From the NCBI GenBank assembly GCA_023920165.1, contig CP089278.1:1302001-1366000 (forward strand): a stretch of DNA of 64,000 bases, read 5' to 3'. The stretch comes from Curvularia clavata (Eukaryota). Positions 36,384 to 46,033 of this stretch are shown piece after piece (position 1 is the first letter of the stretch; the number at the start of each line of letters is the position of its first letter). The notes beneath the pieces were generated by a model. It was not told the DNA's origin and ran no database searches. It saw only the letters and a program-made list of their open reading frames with translations. The position numbers and the translations under genes were made by a program.

Positions 36384-36878
36384 GATTCGGGTTCTGATGC
36401 GGTTAAGTTGTCAACTTGGTAGTACAACGTTCAAAGCAACAACGGTGACGATGCACGATTCGGAATGAAAGAAGTTACAAGAGCGCGTTTTGATAATAAT
36501 TGGTCAATTAGAACCATCCAGACTCTAGATTATTATGATAGAAAACAAAAGGCCATGGAGACTCTTATCTCTAACCGGCATTTGTAGGGTAAATCCCCTC
36601 CATCGCATGTATCCCCACAAGGCGGGGAAGAAGGATCGGAAGGATCGCCACGATGCGGGGATATTTGCATAAGACATGCCGAGGGCAAAGCAGCGTTACT
36701 CCGCACCAATCTCATATGAATAAGGCTTTTAGGACAATGGGCATGTAAAGATGACCTTTTCCCCACAAGACAATATGGTGTTGGAGAACAACAAAGCTGA
36801 ATTATTAGTCGAAACAAGTATAGCTAGCTGGTCTGGCTGAACTGGCTAAAGTAACATTCGCGCATAGCCTTGATGTCA

Positions 36879-38225
36879 TTTACTTTGTCATAAACGCCCA
36901 GAAGCCCTTTGCGAGCAAAACGCTTGGCAAGTCGACGACGCGGTAGAAGACCTCTGCTACCACAGTAGTCAGGGGTACGCATATCAAGAAACATAACAGT
37001 CCATTCACTGCGTTGCTCATCCCTGACGCAGCCATGTGCTGATAAGCTTTGATTCCGACAGTGTATATGATGATGGATTGGACAAGGAAGAAACCTATGA
37101 CATGTAAGTAACTATTTGCTGTTGGCTATAGCTGCCGGTAGACTTACTGAAGCTTCTCTTGCCAAGTGCAACGAAGAACCCGCTGGATAGAACCCTACGG
37201 GCCACGTCGAACGTTTCTATCAAGAGCGTAGAGCCAAGAATAATGAGATAGTTGTCGATGCGAGCCATGGGTTGGTTTAAGTCCACGTTCTCGTTGAGCA
37301 AGCCGCCCGTATAAATTCCAGTGTGGCTGTAGAGTTCCTCATGGCGGAGGTCCGTCCTCCATGAGATGAACAGGAAGTGCAGCAAGACACCGGTAAAGAC
37401 CATGACTGCGTACAGCGGCCAAAACGGGATTGTGAGATTTCCCATCTGGAATCCTCGGCGCGAGCGAGCTGAGAATTCCATATTGAGCACAGCATCGGCG
37501 ATGAGAAGGCCAGTGATACTGTACCAGGCCCAGCTCTGCACCCAGAATGCGGCGACGATGAAGGCAAGCATTGCCTTTACGCGCCAGGATAGACGGGTAT
37601 TGGGGACAATGATCATGGTCATGTAGACAGTGTAGCTTTGCTGAAAAAGTACGGAGACAATCCAGAGGGTACCAGATGGGAAGGCACTGTTGGCGGCTTG
37701 GCTGCCATAGTCTTTGTTGAGCCAGAAAATCTCAAACATGGAGTTGAAATAGACCAGGAAGTTACGTAGGGGCATGGGTACACCAGTTGAGATGTTCCCA
37801 GTAGACTCCATAAAATCAGAAATGTAGTCGGTGGATGCCGCGTTGAAGGCAGCTGCCGCAACCGAGTACGCAACGAAGGTCGGGATCCAGAGCCTAATGC
37901 CACGACGAAAGATGCTGGATGCGCCCACCTCCCGTGTCTTGCTGGCGAGGTACGGTAGGCATATCGTTCGTGCGGACAGGAAGATGATCCATCCGTAGAT
38001 CAAAGAAGGATTGCAAAAGAGCACCGAAAACGACTTCCGGAGCCCAACTTGATACGAAGGGCCATCGACATTCTTCGAATCTGGGACGGCCGCCGGGAGA
38101 AATGTCTGGAAGAAAACGAAGAGAAAAGATTGAATAACAAAAAGACCTCGGAGCCCAATAAGGTAGTCCTGGTCCATGGCAATGCCTGTGGCATAAGAGC
38201 TTGGCGATGATGTGAACATGGCCAT
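36879..38225 (-). CDS. Acyltransferase-3 (AT3/OafA/OpgC-like) multi-pass membrane protein
   Basis: DYLIGLRG, FRRGIRL (RxxR), GTLWIVS, LGKRSFSFFLVQ, FYRVVDLPS; one intron about 37095-37147; alternative starts at 38219 or 38177. Confidence 0.8.
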
Positions 38226-39914
38226 AGGAGAGGATAGAAGTCCGGACTTCGTTGTGGGTGTCTCTGAGGCTCTGCTTTCACGAGTAGAGAACCTAATATC
38301 AGAAAAGAATACTTCACACAAAAGGGAGGGGAAATGATCAGCCCCCTTCTCAGCTGTCACAAACACTCGACCAAGGCCAGCATCAAACACGTCGTCCCGA
38401 AAAACACGAAACTTGCACGTCCCTAAACGCTCAATGGGAGACCCGAGATCATCGCCTTGGCCCGCTCAGAAAAAGAAAAGCTTATGCACTTCGGGAGGGT
38501 CCTCCTTTCTTGGCGTGGTGCTTCACACTGCAGGTACCACATTACCTCACGACTCCGGCATGAAAACGTTGTTTGGCTACAGCATAAGCTCCTGAAGAGC
38601 AATCCTTGGCGGGGGGTACGCATACCGATAGTTTACTTCTGCAACACTACGAAACTGTTGGTAAGCGTTGTGTCTAGTGGATGAGTAGCGGCCCTAACCA
38701 GTAAGGGATGAGATAAGGCATCGTGATCTCGCCGATATATCGTGTCGATACACCTGTCAAGTACGCCACGTCCGTTCCGCGGCGGCTCGATATGCATAAG
38801 GTTGTATGTCCTGCCGTGCGCCCGCTCCTTGATCCTTACTCTTTCTCTAGAGCGAGTCGTGGCGTCGGTGGAGAACACGGAGGATATTAGACAAGCATAG
38901 CAGTGTTGACGAAGATCTTCCGTACGTGGCACAAAGACTTGACTAGGGTGATTCAGCTGTCACCGGTCGCCCTGACATATACTAGTGTATACATTTGCGC
39001 CTATTCGACAAATGTGTATCAGTGGAACCCAGCAAGGAATGGGACATGCCGAGCATTACTGTCTCGAGACAAACCCGTAAACACCCTGACTCGCGACAGG
39101 AACAAGGCTGAACAAAGCGCCCAGGGGTTCCCACATGGATTTGTTTGTTTTGGCATCTTGGAAGCGTCCGACTCGACAAGACACGATGCACGAACTTAAA
39201 TTAAGCTTGTGGTCTATGCTGCCAGCCGCCAATGCCATTCGCCCATTCCCGAGGTTCATCCCACACGTTGCGCTACCATGCACAGTGTGGGAACTAAGCG
39301 CATGCTCGGCTGTGTCCGGCTGTGTAGATCGGCCGCGTGTCCACCATGTAATCTCCCGAGAATCTTTAACAGCCTCAACAGTGGCTGGTGATGTAACGAA
39401 GCGGTCAACCATAGTGGGTCTCTGATAGCTTGCCGTTGTGAATTTTGCGCTCAAGAGGATCATCACCATGTAAGGATATAGCCCATCTTCAAGTTTAGTG
39501 ATGATCTGCAAATGTTTCTCTGCGTCTTCACAGCGCCATGCACATCACTATAACCATGCAAGGTTATGAGAAAGCACAACATGCCAAGAGGCATCGGCTG
39601 AAAATTTGAATTTCCAACTGTCGCTGCATCCCGATGTCCGCAACCCAATCGACTGGTTCGGACGACTTATCGTTCATCTCCGTGTCTTGCAATCAGAAAG
39701 TTACTGGGATAGTTACCAAAATAGTTGAATCGGTTTTGAAAAGTATATTATTGATACTATTCGAGTGTGTTCGCAGCTCGCGATCACCCAATCGGCTGCT
39801 AGAGCCGCGTACCTAACTATTTATACCGAGAAAAGAAAAGAAAAAGGCGTTTGATATCCGCCCCCAGATAAGGATATACACATCATGATTACAGGAACAT
39901 CCCAGTTCGTCAAG

Positions 39915-41495
39915 CTACTTCCTGGCTGTTGGATTCCAGGAGCTGTACTTGACAAGCTGGCGTGCATGGCCGTACAGGCCAATGGTAGCGTTAAGGACAA
40001 GGTAAAATGGATACAAGACTGAGAAGAGAATGATCATCCTTCTTGTCACAAACTCGGATTTCACTTGATTGGTGATCCAGAGAGTTGCGATCAAGCAAAT
40101 AATACTGAAACGAGGTTAGCAAGATCCAGGGGTTAGGCAGTGCATATGCATTACGAACCTGATAATGAAAAGCCACTGTGAGACAGGGTACTGGAAATAC
40201 ACCAACTTCCATAGCTCCTCTCCATTGGTTGGGAACTTGACGATAACAAATGATGCGACCAGGCATGTGTATTGTGTGACCAGGTAGTAGGACGACTCGC
40301 GGATCAGCAACAGCGATAGCATTCCGAACCGAGCTGTGAAGCTGCGCTTGGCATGTTCCTCGTGCAGCGGATCCTTGACGCCATTCCAAACCATTTTCAT
40401 GTGACGCATACTGGCCTGAGCCCATCCTTGAGCCCATCGGAGGCGCTGCTTCCAAAAGGCTGCAAAGGTTGTTGGTGCCAACTCATACGAAGTAACGTTG
40501 AGGTCATGGACAGTCCTAGCGCCCTTTGAGAATGCGCGCAACGCCGAATCGATGTCCTCCGTCAACATGCTTTCGTCCATCTTGAGGTCGCGGAGAAGAG
40601 AGGTGCGCCAATATCCATTTGATCCGCAGAAGAGCCCGAAGCCCCACATGGTGGACCGACCAGGATGGGAAACTGCGTAGATCTTATCAAATTCGACGGA
40701 GATCATATTGGTCATGAAAGAATCTTCGGAGTTGAAGACGATGCACCTGCCCTGGACAATGTCGACATTCTCTGCCATGAATCGCTCAGCTGCCCACCTT
40801 GGCGCATTGGGGTGGGGGTAGTGATCGCAATCGTAGATGGCAATAAGGTCCGATCCGGTGTCCAGCGTGAAGAAGTAATTCAGATTGTCCGCCTTCGATG
40901 TGGACCCTGGCACCTTGATGACTCTGGCGTGGGGGAAGTGATTTCGAAGATCAGCGAGTTCCGTCTCCAGCGGCTCGATTGGCTTCGGTGTGTTGTAAAG
41001 GATATTAATTCTGATTCGGTCCGTGGGATAGGCGATCTCTCTGAGCGCGTAATGGGCGCGATCCATGATAATGTCCTGCTCGTTTGGCAAATAGGCGACG
41101 ATGAGGAGGTCCAAGATGGGCAGCTGGCTGTCTGGTGTGGGAAAATGCCACTTCTTCTCTTGCGCTTGAGTCACCACTTCCCTTGCCTCGCGGCAGGGTG
41201 TGATGCTGAAAAAAGCCTCCAACACTGTCGTACCGGCGATGTAAAAGTTGGTGCACATGTATATGAACCAGAAAACGGCAATGAGGCCTTCGCTGCAATA
41301 CATGTACATGCATACCGAAAAGACGTAGTATGAAAGGACCAGGCCGAAAGGCGTCCATTCGGAAATCCATGAAGATGACCGTCCGACGAGTTGGGAGGGA
41401 GCCCAACTGCTCTTGGGAGAAGACTTCTCGTCAACACAAGGCGCAGGAGAAGAAACTTCTCCTACATCAATGACACAGTCCTTGTTGTCAGACAT
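39915..41495 (-). CDS. Processive family-2 glycosyltransferase (membrane glycan synthase)
   Basis: AYLPNE, TSKADNLN, DCD (DxD), TED, QRLRW (QxxRW); N- and C-terminal TM helices; one intron about 40105-40158. Confidence 0.92.
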
Positions 41496-42787
41496 CTTGT
41501 AAAGAGTGAAGGATGTGACAGTAACGATTGGAGGAAGGGCCAAAGCAAACGAAGGTGACTACTGTAGCAAAACTCAAAGGAGTGAAGAGATGGCACCGAA
41601 CATATATCGGAATTCCAAAGCCCTGGGTTACTGACTACGCGAGGAAAAGGGTGTGGCGGACAGCCAACGTCTGCCCAGAAAAAACATGATGACCTTGCGT
41701 ACTGGTTCATTTCGACTGTGCAATGACGCTCAGGAGAGCTGGCCTTGGCCCCATCTCACCATTATGCCCATGATCGGCACTGTTATCAACAATGCCCGAC
41801 CCTAATCATGGGAGAAAGGCGGGTTAACCCGGTGGTGCTCAGAGGTCCATGCTCTTCTGGAGTATTCCCACATGTACAGGCATGTAGAGTTTTCTCGATT
41901 TGGGCCCTGAACTAGCGTTCTGCGTACGCAGCAGCCAATGGCATACTTTTTCTTCGTCATGATTCTGCCCATATTTTCGATATGCTTGTTGCATGCAGTA
42001 TGGGGCGGGTCCAAGAGTCAATGCTGTGAGGCTAGGCAAAGTAGCACTAGTAGTTTGTGGGCCGAATTATGTCCTAGTATACCGTATATTGGTGTGACCG
42101 AGTGTGCAGAAGCTGAGATATCCGCCGTGGCTCTAGGTAATCCGGACGACAACGCATCTTCTCCTGTAGCAGGGCATGTGCAGTGGAGCAGTGGAGCATG
42201 TGTCACGGACCTCATATCCCGGAGCAAGCTGGAACAAGCCAAAAATCATGCATGTGGCGAAGATCACTTGAGGAATTGGGGGTCACTAAGTTAACCATCA
42301 GGATCATCACAGCCAGCGTGGGATGAAGAAGGAGGAAGGCCGTGTTAGCGTAGGCGCACGGCCCGCTGCGGTGCACGTCTCCTGGCGCTCTGTTCAGCCC
42401 CCTCCGCCTCTTGCGACAGCGACACAGACCCATGCAACAACATTTGCCATTGTCCCAATCGTCATGACCCTGCCAAGGAAAAGCCTGCAGAGCTTTTTGG
42501 ATCTTGTTGCACAGTGCACGGCTGAAGCGCCGGCGATGACCTCAAGGGGCGGGCCAAGTCACATAGGCAGCGGATAGGGGAGCCATCGCGCCCTACTGCC
42601 ATCTGCTTATGAGGCTACAAGCATGACTGCGGCTCCTCCCCATCCGAAAAGCATTGTTGCACGTTTTTCCTAAGCTCCTTAGATTAGCCGTACCTGCCGA
42701 GTGGCATGCGGTAGACAAATACCACCTTTTCAACTTGAACAAACGGTTTCGCTCTGCCTTCCCTCGTTTGGTCACTCGCTTATCCTC

Positions 42788-45700
42788 ATGATTTACTCGT
42801 CTCTACTGGGGCTTGCCTTGGTGCATATCCTGCCTGCCCTTGCAGACGTCTCCCGTGGGACAGACAACTGTACTTGCGGATTCTATGACGGTCAAACCAA
42901 GCAACTCTATACCGACTCCATCATTGTCTACTTCAATGAGACAACAGGACTACCCTTCGACTTTATTGCCGAAGATTTCGAGCAACACTATGCCAAAGAT
43001 TGGGTACGGACTACACACACGTCACATACATGGGACTCGCCAACTAATTTTGTTTAGAATGCAGTTTACCGTGAGGGTGCGTCTCCGGACAACCTGCGGC
43101 ACGACAATGGCCAGCCTCTTCAGCTTGTAGTACAGCCAACAACAAAAGACCACCTTGTAAACGGTGCCAGTCTTCGGACCAAGAGGCGTGACATCCAGCA
43201 TGGCTCCTTTCGTACCCTGATCAAGCCTGCAAGCTGGGATGCTGGAGGCACAGCGGCTTCCATGATGTGGAAATACAACGAAACAGAAGTGACAGAGCTC
43301 AGTGTCATGAATGGTCACCGCCCAAACCAGCCTTGGGTTGGTACCTTTGTGAACAACGAGTTTACAACTCGTAACCTGGGAATGAACTTCAGTCAGCTCC
43401 TCAATGGCACGGCCGCCAATAGAAACTACACCACCCTAGGCGGTGGACTTCGCAACGGCAGTGTCAACCCATGGGACTTCACAGAATACCGCATCGACTG
43501 GACTGCAGACGACATCACTTTCTATATTGGTGGCAATCTGACCCGCCGGGTTCAGCACAAGAAAAACAAGGGCATGCCGTCAGTCCCTTCAGCAATGTTC
43601 TTCAAGCACTGGTCGACCGGTAACCGTTATTCGATGCAGGGACCTCCTCGAGGAAGAGAGGCGGTTGCTGAAATTGGATGGGTCCGCATGTTCTTCAATT
43701 CGTCGACGATGAGCGAAGACTCTCGTGAGGACTTTGTTGCACGCTGTCCCCTGACCGATGCCTGCTCTACTGACGATTTTGAGCTGCGTGGCTCTACACC
43801 GCACGGCGACGAGGCTACAAAACAGTGGAAGCAGGACGGGCATCGAGACATCAAACGCATGCCGGCACTCTGGATATCTGTCTCGTGTCTTGCCATCTCG
43901 ACTTTCCTCCTTATTCACACGCTCATTCGACGTCTGGGGCCTAAGATTGGTAAACGCGCTCCTGAACCAAGCCCAGTATCACCACCACCACCAACAGCAC
44001 AAGTTGGTCAGGGCCCCTATGGTGAAAGCACATTCACAGTAGAATCTGTGGAGGTCTTTTCACGTCCTCAGACGGGTCAGAAATCGCCATCTGTAAAGCG
44101 CCACTCGGTAGACGACCTGACGATCGAGAGGCTTGACAAAAAGCCCAGTTCATCAACACTTGGAGGTTCCACGCCTAAAGTTGGCCTGTCTCGTGGCAAT
44201 TCCGTCATGTTCGATAGCCGCATGACAACGCCTTATGCAAGCAACTTCAACCCCAGTCGCGAAGACGTTACCAGCCCGACACTCAATGTTCCAGGCTCGT
44301 CTGCTCATCACGATTCGATGCTTACCTTAGCCGACCCACGAGCTCAGCTCTCACCACGCCCAGACAAGATCACCATGGAGACCGTCACTGAGTCCGCTCT
44401 GCCAGCTCCCCGCATGCGCCCTCAACCCCCACCGGCGCGAACCCGTATCGATTATCTTGCGGGACTGACGGCGCTATGCTCCCTCGTTGTTACCATTATG
44501 CATTTCGGTCTTACCTTTGTTCCCGCCATGGTTCAACCGGGTGTGGATGCGCACAATGATTCTGAACCCTGGGCGCAAAGGATCATCGGACCCTTCCTGC
44601 TCAACCAGATGTGGCTCGGTGTGTTCTTCACTACCTCCGTCCGTTTCCTGACTGCAGGGTACCTGCGCAAGGGCAAGATGGATGAAATCGCCAAGGCAGC
44701 CGTACGTCGAACACCGCGTCTCATGATTCCCGTCGCTGCAGTCGCGCTGCTCGAGTACTTCTTCATTGATGTTGGTGCCACCAAGTTCCTTCAGTACATC
44801 CCCAGTCTCACTTGGTCAACTTGGCCGTACGTGACTCGATATCAGAATTTCGGCCAGTACATCTCTGAGGTGCTGGAGCTCATGTTCCTCATCCCCAACG
44901 CTGCACCGCAAATTACTCTTCATTACTGCACTGGTGTGCTCTGGACCATCGCCGTACAGCTTCAGGGTTCATGGCTTGTACTCCTCGGTGCCCTTGTTGT
45001 CTATGAGATCAAGACGCCATGGAAGCGCATGTGCTACTACACGTTCTGTCTCGTAAACCACTGGTACGCTCATTCCTGGGGCACGTATCTCTGGTTCGGT
45101 CTGCTGCTTACCGATCTCGATGTGACATATAACTGGAAGAAGTATCTCTCCAACCGACCAGTTGCTTACTACGCTACATTGATCTTCTTCTGGGGTTGTG
45201 TGGCAGCCGGTTTCGCAGCCAACATCGTCCCCAACTGGGTCCACACAACCTTCAACTTTAGCACTTCAGAGCGAAACATCCACCCAGATCCCGTGACTGG
45301 CGAACCAATTCTCAACACTGATGATGCCGGCTACCCAATCTACTACACTCCACGTCTTAACGGTCTCCTATTTGCCGGCGGCATGCAAGCCGTTGTCGAG
45401 CTCTCCGCAGCCGTCCAGTGGGTTCTCTCGACGCCGCCCTTCCTCATCCTCTTCCCCCATGTCTTCACCATCTACCTCATCCACGGCCTCGTCTTCTGGA
45501 CTTATGGCTCCTGGCTCATGGTATTCCTCGCCGACCGAGGCTTCACCTACGGCATCAACGTCGCCATTGTCGGCGTAACTTCGTACGGCGTCCTCTTCGC
45601 CTGCCTCCCCATCGTCACACCCGTAATCGAGGCCCTCGGCAAAGACATGACCGCGCTGGTCTGGATGACCGCAACCAACAAATCACCTCCGCGCCGCCGC

Positions 45701-46033
45701 ACCCTGTACCCGTACCCCGACGACCTCTTCACGAGCCGCATGCCAAATGAGAAAGAAGATGAGAAAAACTCAAACGGTAGCACTACATCCGACGACGTCG
45801 AAAAGGGTCTCGCCCAGCGCCAAAGCGGCAGCAGCGACGACGACGACTCGCTGCGCCCTCCCAGCAACGCCAGCTCCAAAGGAAAAGACAAGGGCAAGGG
45901 CAAGGCTCCCGTTGAAATCGGCGTGTATGGCATGCATGCTTTCGCCTCTGCATCCTCCTTCAACGACGACACCGACTCGCAGGCGAACAGGAGTCGAGCT
46001 GCGAGTCCTATGGTAAGCCGTTTCAGCGGCTAG
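42788..46033 (+). CDS. Signal peptide, GH16-like domain, TM/linker and acyltransferase-3 domain fusion
   Basis: MIYSSLLGLALVHILPALA signal; CTCGFY, IQHGSFRT, FTEYRIDW...ITFYIGG, KHWSTGN (fungal GH16-like); RIDYLAGL, RRTPRL, GVLWTIAVQLQGS, IYLIHG (AT3); intron 43004-43057. Confidence 0.88.

What the first reader, a model, noticed from the sequence alone, without database searches (positions are those of the whole stretch)
38115..44503. The two AT3 domains each keep only half of the conserved R-X10-H motif
Seen: the stand-alone AT3 reads GL-R-GLFVIQSFLF-V (Arg kept, His position is Val; 38115-38150). The fusion reads GL-T-ALCSLVVTIM-H (Arg position is Thr, His kept; 44468-44503). The spacing is exactly 10 residues in both, and both keep RxxR (RGIR, RTPR). 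Known: R/K-X10-H in TM1 is a conserved functional motif of OafA/OafB-type AT3 domains. Inference: reciprocal degeneration suggests a heteromeric or division-of-labour acyltransferase, or repurposing as scaffold/transporter subunits of the synthase.
Basis: partly seen in the sequence, partly recalled or inferred. Interest (0 to 1): 0.75.

Follow-up and report, generated by a model that had tools for sequence, protein, structure and literature searches.

The report
Complementary half-degenerate fungal acyltransferase pair
Two related membrane acyltransferase-like proteins that flank a sugar-polymer synthase in many fungi have lost opposite halves of the family's usual active site, at different times, which points to one working enzyme with a rebuilt donor pocket plus one long-lived non-catalytic partner rather than a shared active site.

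Summary
Aligned to OafB and OacB, the stand-alone protein (A) has Arg at R14 and Val at H25; the fusion (B) has Thr and His. This is conserved: His in 0 of 213 A sequences read; no Arg in 165 derived-B sequences, His in 158 of 166. The split runs through the whole channel: A also lacks the outer-face TM9 Tyr/His but keeps cytosolic basic residues; derived B keeps outer-face His/Tyr/His but lost TM1 Asp/Arg and TM9 Gly/Ser. But the losses were not reciprocal in time. Smut fungi have His-less A beside B proteins with the complete D-x-x-R-X10-H motif, and the tree puts Arg loss on one later branch, where B gained a Lys/Arg at the OafB R338 site. Both residues sit on one helix and act on one CoA, so a shared site is unlikely. 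Best reading: B is the catalytic acyltransferase of a conserved GT2/pseudo-GH16/AT3 glycan module; A is an old pseudo-enzyme partner. No activity or binding was tested. The scan noted this gene trio before on other DNA (e1-7646597, e1-7641740).

The parts
36880..38225 (-). Gene A: stand-alone AT3/TmAT-fold protein, 430 aa; exon 1 38225-37148, intron 37147-37095, exon 2 37094-36880
   Evidence: intron joined in a contig of run X22; fold of orthologue P0001
38115..38150 (-). A TM1: R26 kept, His position V37; the Asp of DxxR is I23 (38159)
37893..37904 (-). A RxxR (R108-G-I-R111)
37078..37163 (-). A TM9 across the intron: G355-K-R357-S358 kept; OafB Y292 site is F362, OafB H295 site is Q365
37323..37337 (-). 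A outer-loop E297-x3-H301, shared with B (E810/H814), not aligned in canonical AT3 references
39915..41495 (-). Processive-type GT2 synthase, 508 aa, intron 40158-40105; D, DxD, TED and QRLRW motifs present
   Evidence: intron joined in runs X5 and X22
42788..46033 (+). Gene B: signal peptide, GH16-like domain, TM anchor, linker, AT3 domain; 1063 aa; intron 43004-43057
   Evidence: identical to P0121; intron joined in runs X1 and X22
42848..43800 (+). GH16-like domain without the ExDxE catalytic motif (approximate limits)
   Evidence: PF00722 hit; ExDxE/ExDxxE in 0 of 109 orthologues
43859..43915 (+). Single TM helix (aa 340-358) between GH16-like domain and linker
   Evidence: hydropathy
44468..44503 (+). 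B TM1: Arg position T543, H554 kept; the Asp of DxxR is A540 (44459)
44708..44719 (+). B RxxR (R623-T-P-R626)
45452..45484 (+). B TM9: F871-P-H-V874 replaces G-[KR]-x-S; Y878 and H881 kept
45641..45643 (+). B K934, at the OafB R338 column; candidate compensating basic residue

Best explanation
The three genes form a conserved fungal module for making and acylating a cell-surface beta-glycan. The GT2 polymerises it (inferred from intact motifs). B is the catalytic acyltransferase: its non-catalytic GH16-like domain holds the glycan on the outer face and its His554/Tyr742/Tyr878/His881 face does the chemistry (residues shown, activity inferred). In the lineage of this fungus B's cytosolic donor pocket was rebuilt once: TM1 Asp/Arg and TM9 Gly/Ser were lost, a Lys/Arg appeared at the OafB R338 site and a Gln at the usual TM4/5 Glu site (shown); it still takes an acyl donor by itself, possibly a changed one (inferred). 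A is an older pseudo-acyltransferase that lost the outer-face catalytic residues before smuts and ascomycetes parted, kept the CoA-phosphate arginines (shown), and serves as a non-catalytic acyl-CoA-binding scaffold or regulator of the module (inferred). The half-and-half look is the sum of two separate events.
For: Site table and OafB mapping. A: TM1 His 0/213; TM9 His 0/54 spliced ascomycete models and 0/51 smut; TM9 Tyr 1/54 and 1/52; Trp where B has invariant Tyr742 (215 of 217 read); R14, R71, R74 sites kept. B: TM9 His 119/119, 49/49, 11/11; Tyr742 120/120, 56/56, 11/13. Smut B complete (R 13/13, H 12/13) plus two unplaced complete B (P0294, P0331). Tree without motif columns: A 100/100, B 100/100, Arg-less B 100/100 nested beside P0294; one change of Arg. 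His-less A and complete B five locus tags apart on a contig of the same length in Thecaphora frezii. K/R934 in 25 of 34 Arg-less B versus 0 of 12 Arg-bearing B; Q706 in 120/120 and 51/58 versus 0/13. Trio in 15 of 15 loci of 20 kb or more, in two gene orders; flanking genes not conserved. All three genes spliced in run X22.
Against: The TM1 Arg is essential where tested (OafA R14A 0.07% of wild type, PMC7448272; TmaT R27A, bioRxiv 2026.07.31.741936), so Arg-less B may not work alone; K934 is absent in 9 of 34 and all the B changes fall on one branch, so compensation is one event and cannot be tested statistically. 8 of 50 Arg-less B representatives also lost the TM1 His, and the Tilletia B next to A has Asn there. 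Both families lost the conserved TM4/5 Glu. TmAT enzymes can work without this His (HGSNAT has Asn; GWT1 lacks the Asp and HGSNAT's catalytic His; PMC12423673), so A need not be dead. Linkage of A and complete B in smuts is shown only by locus tags; in Sporisorium and Violaceomyces the hits lie on different contigs. No glycan, donor or activity is known.
Confidence: 0.45

Rival explanations
1. Obligate division of labour in the filamentous ascomycetes: once the His-less, CoA-binding A sat beside B, B lost its own CoA grip and now needs A to capture acyl-CoA and pass it (or the acyl group) on. A ratchet, not a simultaneous split.
For: The losses sort by side of the membrane. Ascomycete A has a near-invariant extra Arg357 at the TM9 mouth (119/119, 38/40) that smut A lacks (0/52). 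TM1 Arg is essential in other AT3s. A and B are together in 15 of 15 long loci.
Against: R and H act on the two ends of one CoA inside one channel (TmaT structure), and both are on TM1, so no helix swap rebuilds the motif. B retains RxxR, R601, and gained K934. I saw no hand-over between TmAT domains in the papers read.
Confidence: 0.17
2. Two independent transferases with different donors or acceptor sites, like GumF and GumG; A uses a different catalytic residue (for example the outer-loop E297/H301 pair or Tyr198).
For: A is conserved across ascomycetes and smuts (34-78% identity in 12 loci), keeps the CoA arginines, and has E297/H301/R322 at 119/119. HGSNAT and GWT1 work without the TM1 His. 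GumF/GumG acetylate different mannoses.
Against: A lost four outer-face residues together (TM1 His, the Tyr742 site, TM9 Tyr, TM9 His); GumG loses activity when His40 or His297 is changed. The ExxxH pair is shared with B, which keeps its two His, so it may be structural or bind the acceptor. Its distance to the channel could not be measured here.
Confidence: 0.22
3. Neither domain transfers acyl groups in this lineage; A, B and the dead GH16-like domain are scaffold, export or regulatory subunits of the GT2.
For: GH16-like domain lacks ExDxE throughout. Both lost DxxR Asp and the TM4/5 Glu in this lineage; 8 of 50 Arg-less B lack the TM1 His. An AT3 can be a stable partner of a glycosyltransferase (TmaT-AftD), although there it is catalytic.
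Against: B keeps H554 (158/166), Y742, Y878 and H881 almost without exception, which a pure scaffold would not need; smut B is a complete AT3.
Confidence: 0.13

Closest known systems
Bacterial AT3 O-acetyltransferases OafA/OafB, OacB, GumG (PF01757)
   Same: Ten-helix layout, RxxR, TM2 Ser, TM6 Gly, TM10 acidic residue; B keeps both His; A keeps R14/R71/R74 sites.
   Different: There R-X10-H is called absolutely conserved and essential (PMC9833829, PMC7448272). Here each protein lacks half, plus DxxR Asp and the TM4/5 Glu; both have Arg after the TM2 Ser and an extra outer-loop ExxxH.
HGSNAT and GWT1/PIG-W (TmAT superfamily)
   Same: Best structural matches: A Z 15.8 (rmsd 4.7, 296 aligned) and B Z 15.5 (rmsd 4.7, 294) to 8jkv; GWT1 8xik Z 10.7 and 10.2; next rows Z 5.4 and 5.6.
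   Different: 8-10% identity; these are single active enzymes. They show that the TM1 His or Asp can be absent in an active TmAT (PMC12423673).
Xanthan GumF/GumG; staphylococcal icaADBC (recalled, also named in the earlier scan notes)
   Same: AT3 proteins encoded beside a polysaccharide synthase; two AT3s in one cluster (Gum).
   Different: GumG keeps K-X10-H (Lys29-His40); no pseudo-GH16 fusion; bacterial.
Mycobacterial TmaT-AftD complex
   Same: An AT3 bound to a glycosyltransferase, with acetyl-CoA held by four Arg and His38 above the acetyl group.
   Different: One complete AT3 whose catalytic residues are required; no binding between the fungal proteins has been shown.
Aspergillus Tft1 mixed-linkage glucan synthase and other fungal GT2s
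   Same: Fungal GT2 beta-glycan synthase class.
   Different: Orthology not tested; the preprint on Tft1 has no hit for acyltransferase, GH16 or synteny.

Membership tests
TmAT superfamily / AT3 | Ten-TM TmAT fold | tested here: met
   Models pLDDT 86.3 (P0001, 84% identical stand-in for A) and 80.5 (B domain); top three matches HGSNAT, HGSNAT, GWT1. Foldseek alone found nothing at E<=0.001 for B.
AT3 (PF01757) | Profile match | tested here: inconclusive
   Window proteins no hit at E<=0.1; 24 of 74 A-family members hit, best 5.1e-08; 49 of 120 B hits carry it precomputed.
AT3 (PF01757) | TM1 Arg/Lys of DxxR-X10-H, in A | tested here: met
   R26; R/K in 210 of 211. Asp is I23; Glu in 52 of 52 smut A.
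AT3 (PF01757) | TM1 His, in A | tested here: not met
   V37; His in 0 of 213.
AT3 (PF01757) | TM1 Asp and Arg, in B of this lineage | tested here: not met
   A540, T543; basic in 0 of 165. Met in smut B: R 13 of 13, D 9 of 13.
AT3 (PF01757) | TM1 His, in B | tested here: met
   H554; 158 of 166 derived, 12 of 13 smut.
AT3 (PF01757) | TM3 RxxR, both proteins | tested here: met
AT3 (PF01757) | TM2 FxxxxG | tested here: not met
   B keeps Phe (F596), Gly is V600; A has I81 and A85; both have Arg at the next position.
AT3 (PF01757) | TM9 SxxxY and second His | tested here: not met
   Complete in neither: A keeps Ser, has F362/Q365; B has V874, keeps Y878/H881.
AT3 (PF01757) | Acyl-CoA-dependent transfer to a sugar | not testable with these tools
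   needs assay
GH16 hydrolase/transglycosylase | ExDxE or ExDxxE catalytic motif | tested here: not met
   0 of 109 orthologues; also absent in the 36 diverse B printed, smuts included.
Processive GT2 synthase | D, DxD, D, QxxRW | tested here: met
   YDCDH 221, LTEDID 311, QRLRW 350, aligned to BcsA.
Tft1 mixed-linkage glucan synthases | Orthology to AfTFT1 and lichenase-sensitive product | not tested
   sequence not fetched

The most novel reading that the evidence does not exclude
In filamentous ascomycetes the pair is an obligate two-subunit TmAT acyltransferase built by a ratchet: an ancient pseudo-enzyme holds the acyl-CoA-binding half and the fusion protein the catalytic half, together acylating an undescribed GT2-made wall glycan.
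Probability: 0.17. Interest if true: 0.85.

Novelty: new variant of a known kind. Interest (0 to 1): 0.55.

Why it matters
The R-X10-H motif is described as absolutely conserved and essential in AT3 enzymes. Here two widespread fungal subfamilies break it in opposite ways, and nature supplies the controls: a complete B in smuts, a rebuilt B in ascomycetes, and a His-less A in both. That gives a candidate pseudo-enzyme subfamily of the TmAT fold, a natural test of which residues hold CoA and which do the chemistry, and a handle on a probable acylated wall polymer found from Pleosporales to lichen fungi, Talaromyces and smuts.

Tried and rejected
Sequence search of PDB with A found nothing; NCBIfam gave no hit for either AT3; Foldseek gave nothing at E<=0.001 for B. 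Rejected: frame or annotation artefact (introns seen in contigs; B model equals P0121); misregistration; a lineage-specific accident; a second, complete family copy in this genome (only the two window genes match; one GT2 match; these searches are lower bounds); simultaneous reciprocal loss after a recent duplication. The OafB K279 site does not follow the switch: basic in 37 of 48 derived-B representatives. OafB Y194 maps to W741 or Y742 depending on method, so that equivalence is uncertain by one residue. Raw TM9 counts for ascomycete A include intron read-through; I used the 54 of 120 spliced models. Neighbouring AMP-binding, CorA-like, MFS and DGAT genes recur in only 3-4 of 28 long loci and are not part of the module. 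Paper searches found no description of this pair or motif split; the library omits most subscription papers, and unread supplements (alignments of PMC7448272, PMC12423673, PMC2824669; bioRxiv supplements closed) may list these subfamilies.
Full report
Setting. The window is from a Pleosporales fungus (nearest named hits Bipolaris, Curvularia, Alternaria). Three genes matter: A, a stand-alone membrane protein of 430 aa (38225-36880, minus); a GT2 of 508 aa (41495-39915, minus); and B, 1063 aa (42788-46033, plus), with signal peptide, GH16-like domain, one TM helix, a linker and a ten-helix domain. Each has one intron, and each intron is joined in contigs of public runs; run X22 shows all three (these runs are not on record as RNA, but the joints have canonical ends). 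B equals P0121 letter for letter.

Observation. The two stretches read as reported. A and B are paralogues (23% identity over 353 columns). Neither hits PF01757 itself, but orthologues do (24 of 74; 49 of 120), and both models match HGSNAT (Z 15.8 and 15.5) and GWT1 (Z 10.7 and 10.2) far above the next rows (A was folded as P0001). With OacB and OafB fetched from phage records, OacB D44/R47/H58 fall on A I23/R26/V37 and B A540/T543/H554, and OafB R14/H25 do the same in three alignment methods. Across all ids gathered: A has His in 0 of 213 read and R/K in 210 of 211; derived B has no basic residue in 165 read and His in 158 of 166. Ids without a readable TM1 were dropped (18-20 of 231 A, 16-17 of 182 B). 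The best-hit sets are mostly close Dothideomycetes, so the 50%-cluster representatives carry the weight: A His 0 of 44, B Arg 0 of 50. The 'derived B' group excludes 15 representatives that I first noticed by their Arg; the tree below tests that split on 19 B sequences without the motif columns.

The split is wider than TM1. On the outer side A lacks the TM1 His, has Phe at OafB Y292 (Tyr in 1 of 54 spliced models, 1 of 52 smut), Gln/Ser at OafB H295 (His in 0 of 54, 0 of 51), and Trp where B has Tyr742 (near OafB Y194, register uncertain by one). B keeps all four. On the cytosolic side A keeps R14, R71, R74, TM9 G-[KR]-R-S and a TM10 Arg; derived B has Ala for the DxxR Asp, no TM1 Arg, F-P-H-[IV] in TM9 and Pro in TM10. 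Both keep RxxR, both have a new Arg after the TM2 Ser, both lost the TM4/5 Glu, and both share an outer-loop E-x3-H.

History. Twelve or so long B proteins carry the whole motif, for example RIDYLDGMRG...H; those with names are smuts (Acaromyces, Thecaphora, Jaminaea, Violaceomyces, Sporisorium, Meira, Tilletia). Smuts also have A, always His-less (0 of 52). In Thecaphora frezii A and complete B are five locus tags apart on a contig of the same length; in Tilletia controversa A and a B with Asn at the His site have adjacent accessions; in Sporisorium and Violaceomyces the hits are on different contigs. An IQ-TREE tree of 42 of the 98 aligned domains, with 15 motif columns removed, gives A (ascomycete + smut) 100/100, B 100/100, and Arg-less B 100/100 beside the complete, unnamed P0294 (100/98). 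Arg changes once. Holding ascomycete A and Arg-less B together is rejected (p-AU 0.00016) (FastTree on all 98 agrees). A+B as sisters is only 84/78, and outgroup branches are long. So A lost its catalytic face first, beside a complete B; B lost its Arg later. On that later branch B gained K/R at the OafB R338 column (25 of 34 against 0 of 12) and Gln706. R338 is one of four modelled ligands of the CoA 3'-phosphate (PMC9833829), so compensation within B is plausible, but it is one event and unmodelled.

Module. Of 51 metagenome loci with the GT2, 24 hold A and B, 8 only A, 3 only B, 16 neither (all under 4.9 kb); all 15 loci of 20 kb or more hold both, in two gene orders, many being near-copies. 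Named B relatives reach Eurotiomycetes, Leotiomycetes and lichen fungi (class names recalled). Flanking genes do not travel with the trio. The GT2 has its catalytic motifs; the GH16-like domain never has ExDxE. The product is unknown.

Mechanism. Published work places R14 at the CoA 3'-phosphate and H25 about 19 A away at the thioester of the same molecule, both essential (PMC7448272, passages with part of Table 1; PMC9833829, passages and section 9). A TmaT-AftD structure shows this directly (bioRxiv 2026.07.31.741936, passages and section 9). Two subunits therefore cannot pool the motif into one site. In GumG both His40 and His297 are needed (bioRxiv 2026.06.22.733816, passages and section 27 part 1); that His297 is the helix-9 His is my inference, in line with the second conserved His of PMC2824669 (passages). 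A lacks both, hence pseudo-enzyme. Against this, HGSNAT has Asn at the TM1 His site and GWT1 lacks the Asp and HGSNAT's His, yet both work (PMC12423673, parts 1-3 of 7). Against a self-sufficient B: the Arg is essential elsewhere, and 8 of 50 Arg-less representatives lost the TM1 His too. I put B catalytic with A non-catalytic at 0.45, two independent enzymes at 0.22, obligate hand-over at 0.17, both scaffolds at 0.13. Binding between the proteins is untested.

Known or new. Both work like TmAT/AT3 proteins by fold, but each fails defining motif tests, so neither is filed as a canonical AT3 enzyme. Nine paper searches found no account of this pair; the Ustilago A orthologue UMAG_04358 had no hit. 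Other papers seen only in passages or part: PMC9558356, bioRxiv 2026.10.29.762955, bioRxiv 2026.09.17.752320 (part 1 of 5 and passages), PMC4059230, PMC8892547, PMC6490947. No supplements were read. Two earlier scan notes describe the same trio in other genomes; their summaries do not mention the motif split, and they are not independent support.

Verdict. Real, conserved and broader than reported; sequential rather than reciprocal; a new variant of AT3 glycan-acylation modules with a candidate pseudo-enzyme subunit. Interest 0.55.

Noticed in passing
window 36769-38657 (+): A contig of run X1 spans the whole of gene A with two plus-strand GT..AG joints (37104-37166, 38657-38717): a likely spliced antisense transcript.
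   Followed up: no
window 42848-43800: The GH16-like domain lacks the catalytic motif in all orthologues examined, smuts included, yet keeps invariant Cys, RxD and HWSxG residues.
   Followed up: partly
P0244, P0250, P0256, P0261, P0267, P0273, P0312, P0371: Arg-less B proteins that also lost the TM1 His; the six read there keep the TM9 His. Their partners were not examined.
   Followed up: partly
P0366 / P0339: In Tilletia controversa the B-type protein next to A has Asn at both the Asp and His sites, so that pair has no TM1 His.
   Followed up: no
P0411: The Ustilago maydis A orthologue UMAG_04358 is numbered next to UMAG_04357, a GH30 beta-1,6-glucanase-like gene whose deletion did not affect virulence.
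   Followed up: partly
P0364: A chytrid (Terramyces) protein with two tandem AT3 repeats, the first complete, the second without a recognisable TM1 motif; shares the TM2 Ser-x-Arg of this family. May be a gene-model fusion.
   Followed up: no
L020, L025-L027, L033, L034: Alternative gene order with A on the same side of the GT2 as B; the trio stays together.
   Followed up: no
window 37095-37147 and L005-L053: The intron of A sits at the start of TM9 in many related loci; unspliced gene calls give false TM9 sequences.
   Followed up: yes
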